A DNA stretch of 64,000 nucleotides from Escherichia coli (GTDB lineage Bacteria > Pseudomonadota > Gammaproteobacteria > Enterobacterales > Enterobacteriaceae), in assembly GCF_046105845.1 (NCBI RefSeq), contig NZ_CP151004.1. One strand, 5' to 3'. The stretch's first letter is position 1. The number at the start of each line of letters is the position of its first letter. Made by a program: the position numbers. Below are positions 25,338 to 28,300 of this stretch, piece after piece.

Positions 25338-28300
25338 TAAGGACACGACAATGACGATTTTTGATAATTATGAAGTGTGGTTTGTAATTGGCAGCCAGCA
25401 TCTGTATGGCCCGGAAACCCTGCGTCAGGTCACCCAACATGCCGAGCACGTCGTTAATGCGCTGAATACGGAAGCGAAACTGCCCTGCAAACTGGTGCTG
25501 AAACCGCTGGGCACCACGCCGGATGAAATCACCGCTATTTGCCGTGACGCGAATTACGACGATCGTTGCGCCGGCCTGGTAGTGTGGCTACACACTTTCT
25601 CCCCGGCCAAAATGTGGATCAACGGCCTGACCATGCTCAACAAACCGTTGCTGCAATTCCACACCCAGTTCAACGCGGCGCTGCCGTGGGATAGCATCGA
25701 TATGGACTTTATGAACCTGAACCAGACTGCACATGGCGGTCGCGAGTTCGGCTTCATTGGCGCGCGTATGCGTCAGCAACATGCCGTGGTTACCGGTCAC
25801 TGGCAGGATAAACAAGCCCATGAGCGTATCGGCTCCTGGATGCGTCAGGCGGTATCTAAACAGGATACCCGTCATCTGAAAGTCTGCCGTTTTGGCGATA
25901 ACATGCGTGAAGTAGCGGTCACCGATGGTGATAAAGTTGCCGCACAGATCAAGTTCGGTTTCTCCGTCAATACCTGGGCGGTTGGCGATCTGGTGCAGGT
26001 GGTGAACTCCATCAGCGATGGCGATGTTAACGCGCTGGTCGATGAGTATGAAAGCAGCTACACCATGACGCCTGCCACACAAATCCACGGCGAAAAACGA
26101 CAGAACGTGCTGGAAGCGGCGCGTATTGAGCTGGGGATGAAGCGTTTCCTGGAACAAGGTGGCTTCCACGCGTTCACCACCACCTTTGAAGATTTGCACG
26201 GTCTGAAACAGCTTCCTGGTCTGGCCGTACAGCGTCTGATGCAGCAGGGTTACGGCTTTGCGGGCGAAGGCGACTGGAAAACTGCCGCCCTGCTTCGCAT
26301 CATGAAGGTGATGTCAACCGGTCTGCAGGGCGGCACCTCCTTTATGGAGGACTACACCTATCACTTCGAGAAAGGTAATGATCTGGTGCTCGGCTCCCAT
26401 ATGCTGGAAGTCTGTCCGTCGATCGCCGTAGAAGAGAAACCGATCCTCGACGTTCAACACCTCGGTATTGGCGGTAAAGACGATCCTGCCCGCCTGATCT
26501 TCAATACCCAAACTGGTCCGGCGATTGTCGCCAGCTTGATTGATCTCGGCGATCGTTACCGTCTGTTGGTTAACTGCATCGACACGGTGAAAACGCCGCA
26601 CACCCTGCCGAAACTGCCGGTGGCGAATGCGCTGTGGAAAGCGCAGCCGGATCTGCCAACTGCTTCCGAAGCGTGGATCCTCGCTGGTGGCGCGCACCAT
26701 ACCGTTTTCAGCCATGCGCTGAACCTCAACGATATGCGCCAGTTCGCCGAGATGCACGACATTGAAATCACGGTGATTGATAACGACACCCGCCTGCCAG
26801 CGTTTAAAGACGCGCTGCGCTGGAACGAAGTGTATTACGGGTTTCGTCGCTAAGTAGCTGCATCAGGTGTGTAACGCCTGATGCGACGCTGACGCGTCTT
26901 ATCAGGCCTACACGCTGTGATTTTGTAGGCCGGATAAGCAAAGCGCATCCGGCATTGTTTTCCCCCTCGCCCCTTTGGGGAGAGGGCCGGGGTGAGGGGA
27001 AACGACCTCTCAGGAGTCAACATGTTAGAAGATCTCAAACGCCAGGTATTAGAAGCCAATTTGGCGCTGCCAAAACATAACCTGGTCACGCTCACCTGGG
27101 GCAACGTCAGCGCCGTTGATCGCGAGCGCGGCGTCTTGGTGATCAAACCTTCCGGCGTCGATTACAACGTCATGACCGCTGACGATATGGTCGTGGTAAG
27201 CATCGAAACCGGTGAAGTGGTTGAAGGAACGAAAAAGCCCTCCTCCGACACGCCAACTCACCGGCTGCTCTATCAGGCATTCCCGTCCATTGGCGGCATT
27301 GTGCACACACACTCGCGCCACGCCACCATCTGGGCGCAGGCGGGTCAGTCGATTCCAGCAACCGGTACCACCCACGCCGACTATTTCTACGGCACCATTC
27401 CCTGCACCCGCAAAATGACCGACGCAGAAATCAACGGTGAATATGAATGGGAAACCGGTAACGTCATCGTCGAAACCTTCGAAAAACAGGGTATCGATGC
27501 AGCGCAAATGCCCGGCGTTCTGGTCCATTCCCACGGCCCATTTGCATGGGGCAAAAATGCCGAAGATGCAGTGCATAACGCCATCGTGCTGGAAGAGGTC
27601 GCTTATATGGGGATATTCTGCCGTCAGTTAGCGCCGCAGTTACCGGATATGCAGCAAACGCTGCTGAATAAACACTATCTGCGTAAGCATGGCGCGAAGG
27701 CATATTACGGGCAGTAATGACTGTATAAAACCACAGCCAATCAAACGAAACCAGGCTATAATCAAGCCTGGTTTTTTATTGGATTTTCAGCGTGGCGCAG
27801 GCAGGTTTTATCTTAACCCGACACTGGCGGGACACCCCGCAAGGGACAGAAGTCTCCTTCTGGCTGGCGACGGACAACGGGCCGTTGCAGGTTACGCTTG
27901 CACCGCAAGAGTCCGTGGCCTTTATTCCCGCCGATCAGGTTCCCCGCGCTCAGCATATTTTGCAGGGTGAACAAGGCTTTCGCCTGACGCCGCTGGCGTT
28001 AAAAGATTTTCACCGCCAACCGGTGTATGGCCTTTACTGTCGCGCCCATCGCCAGTTGATAAATTACGAAAAGCGCCTGCGTGAAGCTGGCGTTACCGTC
28101 TACGAGGCCGATGTGCGCCCGCCAGAACGCTATCTGATGGAGCGGTTTATCACCTCTCCGGTGTGGGTCGAGGGTGATATGCGCAATGGCGCTATCGTTA
28201 ATGCCCGTCTGAAACCGCATCCCGACTACCGTCCGCCGCTCAAGTGGGTTTCTATTGATATTGAAACCACCCGCCACGGTGAGCTGTACTGCATCGGCCT

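What the first reader, a model, noticed from the sequence alone, without database searches (positions are those of the whole stretch)
27720..27740. LexA box placed between araD stop and polB start
ctgtataaaaccacag (CTGT-N8-ACAG) lies a few bp after the araD stop and about 55 bp before the polB GTG start, consistent with polB being SOS-inducible. The GTG start may also limit polB translation.
Basis: partly seen in the sequence, partly recalled or inferred. Interest (0 to 1): 0.25.

Follow-up and report, generated by a model that had tools for sequence, protein, structure and literature searches.

The report
Known LexA operator of polB (dinA)
The palindrome between araD and polB is the long-known, rather weak LexA (SOS) repressor site that makes DNA polymerase II inducible by DNA damage, so the finding is correct but ordinary.

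Summary
CTGTATAAAACCACAG lies at 27721-27736, 3 nt after the araD stop (TAA 27715-27717) and 55 nt before the polB GTG (27792).

It is the textbook polB/dinA SOS box. The 25-mer 27717-27741 is identical to the E. coli K-12 polB box listed in PMC3009722. polB is a classic LexA-dependent, damage-induced gene with a published heterology index of about 13.

The box is weak. My recomputed HI is 12.6. The 16-18-nt core scores 14-18 bits, in the lower part of or just below the range of known boxes and rank 1-5 in the window. The full 20-mer scores below every known box because of G at position 1 and C at position 20.

Seventy-nine Enterobacteriaceae polB loci keep CTG-N10-CAG, almost always exactly 20 nt before a TATAAT/TATACT hexamer. 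The araD-to-box distance ranges from 0 to 1424 nt, so the box belongs to polB.

Inferred mechanism: LexA covers the -35 region of a promoter whose -10 hexamer (27757-27762) lies in the loop of the araBAD terminator hairpin. Transcripts therefore start inside the hairpin's 3' arm and escape termination. The GTG start is conserved in all 81 sequences.

Novelty: already known. Interest: low.

The parts
27022..27717 (+). araD coding sequence (L-ribulose-5-phosphate 4-epimerase, 231 aa); stop codon TAA at 27715-27717
   Evidence: ORF list. RefSeq annotation of the matching E. coli loci. tblastn of the translated sequence finds araD upstream of polB in 77 of 79 loci.
27719..27738 (+). LexA (SOS) box as a 20-mer, GACTGTATAAAACCACAGCC; the palindromic core CTGT-N8-ACAG is 27721-27736
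   Evidence: Identical to the published K-12 polB box. HI 12.6 and 18-mer matrix 15.5-18.2 bits. CTG-N10-CAG is kept in 79 of 79 orthologous loci that have upstream DNA.
27734..27739 (+). Inferred -35 position (CAGCCA, 3 of 6 matches to TTGACA), 17 nt before the -10 hexamer and overlapping the right half of the LexA box
   Evidence: Inference from the position of the -10 hexamer. The consensus promoter scan found no sigma-70 site that meets its -35 threshold.
27748..27777 (+). Intrinsic-terminator hairpin of the araBAD operon. The stem is AAACCAGGCT / AGCCTGGTTT, with core CCAGGCT 27751-27757 pairing with AGCCTGG 27765-27771. The loop is 7 nt and the T-run is 27772-27777.
   Evidence: The RNA fold of 27700-27800 puts an 11-pair stem here (MFE -27.6 kcal/mol, z -2.76). 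The same stem was flagged by the terminator scan, reported on the - strand because the arms are symmetric. The hairpin is intact in nearly all loci where araD ends within 275 nt of the box, and degraded in about half of the loci with an insertion of 660 nt or more.
27757..27762 (+). -10 hexamer TATAAT of the polB promoter, spanning the last base of the 5' stem arm and the first five loop bases of the terminator hairpin. It is preceded by G(-14) C(-13).
   Evidence: Read. A TATAAT (70) or TATACT (10) hexamer lies exactly 20 nt after the box in 78 of 80 sequences and 21 nt after it in the other 2. AACCAGGYTATAAT is nearly invariant. K-12 has TATACT here.
27766..27770 (+). Predicted polB transcription start, inside the 3' arm of the hairpin, so polB mRNA lacks the 5' arm
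   Evidence: Inference: 7 nt after the -10 hexamer gives 27769. The tiling-array paper places the box 18-mer at position 54 of the 100 nt upstream of the UV-induced polB transcript. That puts the transcript start near 27766-27768, at an array resolution of about 7 nt.
27781..27783 (+). Weak Shine-Dalgarno-like GGA, 8 nt before the start codon
   Evidence: Read from the sequence. GGA- or GAG-containing stretches occupy this position in the orthologues. Not tested.
27792..30143 (+). polB (DNA polymerase II, 783 aa) with a GTG start codon
   Evidence: GTG is conserved at the homologous codon in 81 of 81 sequences, 29-33 nt after the -10 hexamer in 73 of them. The product differs from K-12 PolB at 7 residues.

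Best explanation
The 16-bp palindrome is the LexA operator of polB (dinA), the gene for DNA polymerase II.

In undamaged cells a LexA dimer binds 27719-27738. This stretch covers about -50 to -31 of a promoter whose -10 hexamer is TATAAT at 27757-27762. LexA therefore occupies the -35 region and hinders RNA polymerase binding.

After DNA damage, RecA-stimulated LexA self-cleavage frees the promoter and polB rises a few-fold. Because the box departs from the consensus (HI about 12.6), repression is leaky. This fits the published basal level of about 50 Pol II molecules per cell and the modest 3- to 7-fold induction.

The promoter is nested in the araBAD terminator. The -10 hexamer lies in the hairpin loop and the start site in the 3' arm. 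araBAD transcripts therefore terminate here, whereas polB transcripts start downstream of the 5' arm and are not terminated.

Shown here: sequence identity to the published box, matrix and HI values, conservation and fixed spacing across 79 species, and linkage to polB rather than araD.

Taken from the literature: LexA-dependent, damage-inducible expression.

Inferred: the exact -35 and start-site positions and the occlusion mechanism.
For: - Coordinates and gene context.
- Identity to the published K-12 polB SOS box.
- polB is UV-induced. It is induced 4.7-fold by AZT and is 3.1-fold dependent on LexA cleavage, with HI about 13.
- polB is allelic with LexA-regulated dinA, with about 50 molecules per cell and about 7-fold induction.
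- polB is listed among genes with a known SOS box.
- Salmonella polB rises 3.4-fold with nalidixic acid.
- Recomputed HI 12.6 ranks 3rd in the window. The 18-mer matrix gives p about 3e-7 to 2e-6 and rank 1-3.
- All 79 orthologous loci with upstream DNA keep CTG-N10-CAG. The gap from box to -10 hexamer is 20 nt in 78 of 80 sequences, while the 12 nt after the box carry almost no information.
- The distance from the araD stop to the box ranges from 0 to 1424 nt, while the box-promoter-GTG module stays fixed.
- The UV-induced transcript boundary (about 27766-27768) fits the -10 hexamer at 27757-27762.
Against: - The full 20-mer matrix score (7-13 bits) is below every one of the 17 training boxes. 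Between 2 and 12 equal-or-better hits per 64 kb are expected by chance.
- One intragenic site in the window, 43104 in apaH, scores higher.
- The consensus promoter scan found no sigma-70 promoter, because the -35 matches only 3 of 6. The promoter position is therefore inferred.
- An intrinsic terminator lies between the box and the gene. Without the start-site argument, this could suggest that the box is outside the polB transcription unit.
- The primary binding papers were not available in the paper library: Iwasaki 1990, Bonner 1990 and the Wade 2005 ChIP-chip study. The Courcelle 2001 UV expression study was not held either. Direct LexA binding is therefore cited second-hand.
Confidence: 0.95

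Rival explanations
1. The palindrome is a chance match to CTGT-N8-ACAG with no regulatory role. polB induction would then come from elsewhere.
For: The 20-mer matrix score is below all known boxes, and several equal-or-better hits per 64 kb are expected by chance. Two other CTGT-N8-ACAG matches and a better-scoring intragenic site exist in the same window.
Against: CTG-N10-CAG is kept in 79 of 79 species at a fixed 20-nt distance from the -10 hexamer, while the neighbouring spacer is unconserved. The site is identical to the published polB box. polB expression depends on LexA cleavage.
Confidence: 0.01
2. The box serves the araBAD operon rather than polB. For example, LexA bound 3 nt after the araD stop could act as a roadblock that assists termination or 3'-end formation of araBAD transcripts.
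For: The box abuts the araD stop and lies upstream of the araBAD terminator hairpin. In most species araD is the immediate upstream neighbour.
Against: In 22 species and in E. coli SCU-301, an insertion of 660-1424 nt, or about 1.4 kb in SCU-301, separates araD from the box. SCU-301 is the only insert whose gene content was examined, and it carries three annotated genes. In all of these loci the box stays at the same distance from the polB -10 hexamer and GTG. Nothing I read links LexA to ara expression.
Confidence: 0.03
3. The conserved CTGTATAAAA...CAG stretch is kept mainly as a promoter element (-35 or UP-like A-tract), or as the site of another regulator such as one tied to RpoS-dependent expression. 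Its resemblance to a LexA box would then be secondary.
For: The left half plus A-tract is more conserved than the right half. The -35 is otherwise poor. polB also needs RpoS for full expression. The G(-14) C(-13) before the -10 hexamer fits the sigma-S preference as I recall it, which I did not test.
Against: The invariant positions are exactly the LexA-contacted CTG and CAG triplets. The variation seen among orthologues (CCAG, ACAG, TCAG) stays within what known boxes show. LexA dependence of expression is published.
Confidence: 0.01

Closest known systems
E. coli K-12 polB (dinA) SOS box / LexA operator
   Same: The 25-mer ATGACTGTATAAAACCACAGCCAAT is identical. It has the same position between araD and polB, the same GTG start and the same terminator hairpin.
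   Different: Only the flanking promoter differs. The window has TATAAT at -10 where K-12 has TATACT, and ATTGG where K-12 has GATGG after the T-run. The window's allele is shared by 1296 of 5368 E. coli genomes.
Orthologous polB boxes of Salmonella, Citrobacter, Enterobacter and Lelliottia
   Same: They share the CTG-N10-CAG core, the 20-nt distance to the -10 hexamer and the GTG start. Salmonella polB is damage-induced.
   Different: Some orthologues are much closer to the consensus, at 19-24 bits on the 20-mer matrix: Enterobacter and Lelliottia AACTGTATATA(A/T)ACCCAGCA, and Citrobacter sedlakii TACTGTACAAAATAACAGTA. The Escherichia box scores about 7 bits. The Salmonella boxes themselves score only 8.5-10.8 bits on the 20-mer. 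Many of these loci have extra DNA between araD and the box, and some lack the terminator hairpin.
Other weak E. coli SOS boxes (dinB HI about 9.4, ybfE about 11, yoaA about 13)
   Same: They have a high heterology index, a modest fold induction and a relatively high basal level.
   Different: They regulate different genes and have different promoter geometry. The polB box lies wholly upstream of the -10 hexamer, over the -35 region, and directly follows the stop codon of another operon.

Membership tests
Gammaproteobacterial LexA (SOS) box | Palindromic core CTG-N10-CAG (CTGT-N8-ACAG) | tested here: met
   Exact match at 27721-27736.
Gammaproteobacterial LexA (SOS) box | A/T-rich spacer resembling (TA)n | tested here: met
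   The N10 spacer TATAAAACCA has 7 of 10 A/T. The two other CTGT-N8-ACAG matches in the window have GC-rich spacers and score -3.4 to 2.9 bits.
Gammaproteobacterial LexA (SOS) box | Matrix score or heterology index within the range of experimentally confirmed boxes | tested here: inconclusive
   HI 12.6 lies within the range the literature lists (loci with HI below 14), but it is worse than all 17 training sites (maximum 8.9). The 16-mer core falls within the training range. The 18-mer falls within it or just below its minimum, depending on the matrix variant. The 20-mer falls below the range.
Gammaproteobacterial LexA (SOS) box | Overlaps or adjoins the promoter of the regulated gene | tested here: met
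   The box ends 20 nt before a conserved TATAAT hexamer, so it covers the inferred -35. The transcript boundary from the tiling array agrees. The start site was not mapped here.
Gammaproteobacterial LexA (SOS) box | Downstream gene is induced by DNA damage in a LexA-cleavage-dependent way | not testable with these tools
   Literature only: 4.7-fold AZT induction and 3.1-fold lexA3 dependence, UV induction, dinA allelic with polB.
Gammaproteobacterial LexA (SOS) box | Physical binding by LexA (footprint, gel shift or ChIP) | not testable with these tools
   The primary papers were not held in the library. Binding is cited only indirectly through reviews.
Gammaproteobacterial LexA (SOS) box | Conserved in orthologous promoters of related species | tested here: met
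   Present in 79 of 79 loci with upstream DNA, with fixed spacing to the -10 hexamer in 78 of 80 sequences.
Intrinsic (Rho-independent) terminator (araBAD 3' end) | G+C-rich stem-loop followed by a T-run, downstream of the last gene of the operon | tested here: met
   A 10-11-pair stem at 27748-27774 plus TTTTTT. It is retained where araD is adjacent and often lost where other DNA intervenes. Termination activity was not tested.
Sigma-70-type promoter (polB promoter) | -10 hexamer close to TATAAT | tested here: met
   TATAAT at 27757-27762. It is conserved as TATAAT or TATACT in 80 of 80 sequences.
Sigma-70-type promoter (polB promoter) | -35 hexamer close to TTGACA, 16-18 nt upstream | tested here: not met
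   The best candidate, CAGCCA, matches 3 of 6. The promoter scan returned 0 sites. The promoter would therefore depend on its perfect -10 hexamer.

The most novel reading that the evidence does not exclude
The polB promoter is built into the araBAD terminator, with the -10 hexamer in the loop and the start site in the 3' arm. The LexA operator sits directly against the araD stop codon. The evidence does not exclude cross-talk between the two units. Bound LexA could act as a roadblock that sharpens araBAD termination. Alternatively, heavy arabinose-driven transcription through the operator could evict LexA, or occlude the promoter, and so couple arabinose growth to Pol II level.

Related to this, the 5' arm (AACCAGG) stays nearly invariant even in species that have lost the 3' arm. 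This hints at a second, unidentified constraint on that stretch.
Probability: 0.08. Interest if true: 0.35.

Novelty: already known. Interest (0 to 1): 0.08.

Why it matters
It matters little as a discovery. The site has been the accepted operator of polB/dinA since 1990 and appears in standard SOS-box tables.

Its value here is as a positive control for the scan: a tool-less reader found a real operator and placed it correctly.

It is also a caution for matrix-based checks. This genuine box fails a strict 20-mer matrix threshold and is outscored by an intragenic site in the same window.

The comparative data add modest detail:
- The box is linked to polB, not to araD.
- It lies at a fixed 20-nt distance from the -10 hexamer.
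- The promoter is nested in the araBAD terminator.
- The GTG start is universally conserved.

Tried and rejected
- **Consensus promoter scan of 27500-28000.** It found no sigma-70 site because the -35 is poor. The only terminator call was on the - strand, an effect of the symmetric arms and greedy stem extension.
- **Rfam, permissive threshold, 27500-28000.** The only hit was sub-threshold: C0465 on the - strand, 20.5 bits against a gathering score of 40, E = 0.31. I treated it as chance.
- **Second LexA box using the conserved CCAG of the hairpin arm.** The partner position 13 nt upstream is AAT in the window and unconserved in the alignment, so I rejected it.
- **The other two CTGT-N8-ACAG matches (18232, 59124).** Their matrix scores are -3.4 to 2.9 bits, so they are not LexA-like.
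- **Primary literature.** Iwasaki 1990, Bonner 1990, Wade 2005 and Courcelle 2001 are not held in the library.
- **PMC6158703.** It mentions polB often but says nothing about its promoter.
- **The 19-bp insertion in Nissle 1917.** I checked whether it is a common allele. It occurs in 1 of 5426 genomes.
- **Origin of the window.** It is 97-98.5% identical to complete E. coli genomes across araB-rapA and identical to none, although the 84-nt intergenic stretch is identical to 1296 genomes. I did not pursue this further.

Full report
**1. Observation**

The + strand reads ...ggcagTAAtgaCTGTATAAAACCACAGccaatcaaacgAAACCAGGCTataatcaAGCCTGGTTTtttattggattttcagcGTGgcgcag....
- The palindrome CTGT-N8-ACAG occupies 27721-27736.
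- The araD stop TAA is at 27715-27717, 3 nt before the box.
- The first start codon of the 783-aa ORF 27792-30143 is GTG, 55 nt after the box.

A 1.5-kb stretch around the site matches 5400 of 5426 complete E. coli genomes at up to 98.1% identity. It is annotated araD | polB there. The flanking genes are araB, araA and rapA.

**2. Is it more than chance?**

The bare pattern occurs 3 times in 64 kb against 0.52 expected, so the pattern alone proves little.

I built LexA matrices from the 17 other SOS boxes tabulated in PMC3009722, leaving polB out.
- The 18-mer core scores 15.5-18.2 bits. This corresponds to p 3e-7 to 2e-6, rank 1-3 of about 128,000 positions, and 0.04-0.25 hits expected per window.
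- The 16-mer core scores 14.2-16.7 bits.
- The 16-mer score lies within the range of the training boxes. The 18-mer score lies within it or just below its minimum, depending on the matrix variant.
- The full 20-mer scores only 7-13 bits, below every training box (minimum about 17). G at position 1 and C at position 20 almost never occur in known boxes.

A heterology index computed with the same 17 sites is 12.6. The published value for polB is about 13.

The two other CTGT-N8-ACAG matches score -3.4 to 2.9 bits.

The site is therefore a genuine but weak box. A strict 20-mer threshold would have rejected it wrongly.

**3. Identity with the known operator**

The 25-mer 27717-27741 is identical to the polB entry of the SOS-box table in PMC3009722, where it was found upstream of the UV-induced polB gene and transcript. 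An alignment with K-12 MG1655 shows the box and the hairpin arms unchanged.

The literature available here states the following:
- polB is allelic with the LexA-regulated, damage-inducible dinA gene. It has about 50 molecules per cell basally and rises about 7-fold on induction (PMC2680738).
- polB belongs to the genes with a known SOS box (PMC6590174).
- polB is induced 4.7-fold by AZT and is 3.1-fold dependent on LexA cleavage (PMC11228462).
- Salmonella polB rises 3.4-fold with nalidixic acid (PMC8072944 supplement).

I could not open the primary binding papers.

**4. Comparative evidence**

A scan of one genome per species with the first 300 residues of PolB returned 80 Enterobacteriaceae loci.
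- All 79 loci that include upstream DNA carry CTG-N10-CAG.
- Anchored on the box, the columns CTGTAT.AAA and CAG are nearly invariant.
- The 12 nt after the box carry almost no information.
- Then comes a nearly invariant AACCAGGYTATAAT.
- The distance from the CAG to the -10 hexamer is 20 nt in 78 of 80 sequences and 21 nt in the other 2.
- The hexamer is TATAAT in 70 sequences and TATACT in 10.

The distance from the araD stop to the box ranges from 0 to 1424 nt. Species such as Salmonella, several Citrobacter, Pseudocitrobacter and Phytobacter have 660-1400 nt of other DNA between araD and the box. So does E. coli SCU-301, with about 1.4 kb. SCU-301 is the only insert whose gene content I examined, and it carries three annotated hypothetical genes. 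The box-promoter-GTG module is unchanged in all of these loci. The box therefore belongs to polB, not to araD.

The Escherichia version is among the weakest of the orthologous boxes, at about 7 bits on the 20-mer matrix. Enterobacter and Lelliottia versions reach 22-24 bits.

**5. Anatomy and mechanism**

Between the box and the GTG lies a hairpin: AAACCAGGCT / AGCCTGGTTT, 7-nt loop, then a T-run. It dominates the predicted fold and has the form of an intrinsic terminator for araBAD.

The conserved TATAAT (27757-27762) spans the last base of the 5' arm and the first five loop bases. A start site 7 nt downstream (about 27769) falls in the 3' arm. The tiling-array boundary of the UV-induced polB transcript falls at about 27766-27768, at roughly 7-nt resolution.

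My reading is as follows.
- araBAD transcripts form the hairpin and stop.
- polB transcripts begin inside the 3' arm, cannot form the hairpin, and continue through a leader of about 23 nt to the GTG.
- The box (about -50 to -31) covers the -35 position. There the sequence CAGCCA matches only 3 of 6, and the consensus scan found no promoter.
- LexA bound there would block RNA polymerase.
- The weak operator explains the leaky repression and small induction ratio reported.

The start site, the -35 assignment and the occlusion mechanism are inferences.

The hairpin is intact in nearly all loci where araD ends within 275 nt of the box. It is degraded in about half of the loci with a large insertion. 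This fits a terminator role for the 3' arm and a promoter role for the 5' arm and loop.

**6. The GTG start**

The homologous codon is GTG in all 81 sequences examined, followed by A/T-Q. It lies 29-33 nt after the -10 hexamer in 73 of them.

**7. Rivals**

- A chance palindrome is excluded by conservation and by the published LexA dependence.
- A role for araBAD rather than polB is contradicted by the variable araD-to-box distance.
- A purely promoter-element role does not explain why the invariant bases are exactly the LexA-contacted triplets.

**8. Verdict**

The feature is the already known polB/dinA LexA operator. Interest is low.

The most novel reading left open is functional cross-talk between araBAD termination and the LexA-controlled polB promoter that is nested in the terminator. 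I consider it unlikely and did not test it.

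Noticed in passing
window 27748-27777: The polB -10 hexamer lies in the loop of the araBAD terminator hairpin, and the predicted start site lies in its 3' arm. 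Across 80 species the 5' arm plus -10 (AACCAGGYTATAAT) is nearly invariant, even where the 3' arm and T-run have decayed, as in Salmonella, Pseudocitrobacter, Phytobacter and Citrobacter sedlakii.
   Followed up: yes
window 27757-27762 vs L002 (K-12 MG1655): There is a natural -10 polymorphism. The window has the consensus TATAAT, and 1296 of 5368 E. coli genomes share its 84-nt intergenic allele. K-12 and apparently most E. coli have TATACT. Together with G(-14) C(-13), TATACT resembles the sigma-S-preferred motif as I recall it. This could change the basal Pol II level or its RpoS dependence.
   Followed up: partly
L084 (E. coli Nissle 1917, CP007799.1) 333-351: A 19-bp insertion (ataaattttggttttggaa-like) lies between the LexA box and the hairpin. 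It moves the box from 20 to 39 nt before the -10 hexamer. It occurs in only 1 of 5426 genomes, so it is either strain-specific or an assembly error.
   Followed up: yes
L083 (E. coli SCU-301) 1068-2544: This E. coli carries about 1.4 kb with three hypothetical genes on the opposite strand between araD and polB. Its box, TACTGTACAAAATATCAGTA, is of the type seen in Salmonella and Citrobacter rather than the usual Escherichia type. This suggests that the polB upstream region was exchanged or is ancestral.
   Followed up: partly
window 43104-43123: CGCTGGGAAGATAAACAGTA is the best LexA-matrix hit in the window: 17.3 bits, HI 8.3, p 6e-7, with 0.08 hits expected per window. It lies inside the 3' end of the 280-aa ORF 42336-43178, which I take to be apaH from its size and position. 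No downstream promoter is evident. It is probably chance, but it outscores the real polB box.
   Followed up: partly
window 10134-10153: ATCCGTTTTTGTATCCAGTA is the second-best 20-mer LexA-matrix hit (12.8 bits). It lies in the intergenic region upstream of the 523-aa ORF 10371-11942, which I take to be the leuO-leuLA region from its size and position. It lacks the left CTG, so it is probably not a LexA site.
   Followed up: no
window 27792-27794 and 80 related loci: The GTG start codon of polB is conserved at the homologous position in 81 of 81 sequences. It is preceded by only a weak GGA- or GAG-type ribosome-binding stretch.
   Followed up: yes
related loci L027, L030, L032, L067 vs window 27719-27738: Orthologous polB boxes differ widely in predicted strength, from 6.6 to 24 bits on the 20-mer matrix. 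The Escherichia box is among the weakest, and the Enterobacter and Lelliottia boxes are near-consensus.
   Followed up: partly
window 24000-31500: The window is 97-98.5% identical to complete E. coli genomes across araB-rapA and matches none exactly. Mismatches are spread unevenly. For example, there are none at 25250-26000 or 29750-30750 against strain TUM14771. This suggests a mosaic or an under-sampled Escherichia lineage.
   Followed up: partly
window 27751-27755 and 27767-27771: The two hairpin arms each contain a CCWGG (Dcm methylation) site, CCAGG and CCTGG. They flank the -10 hexamer.
   Followed up: no
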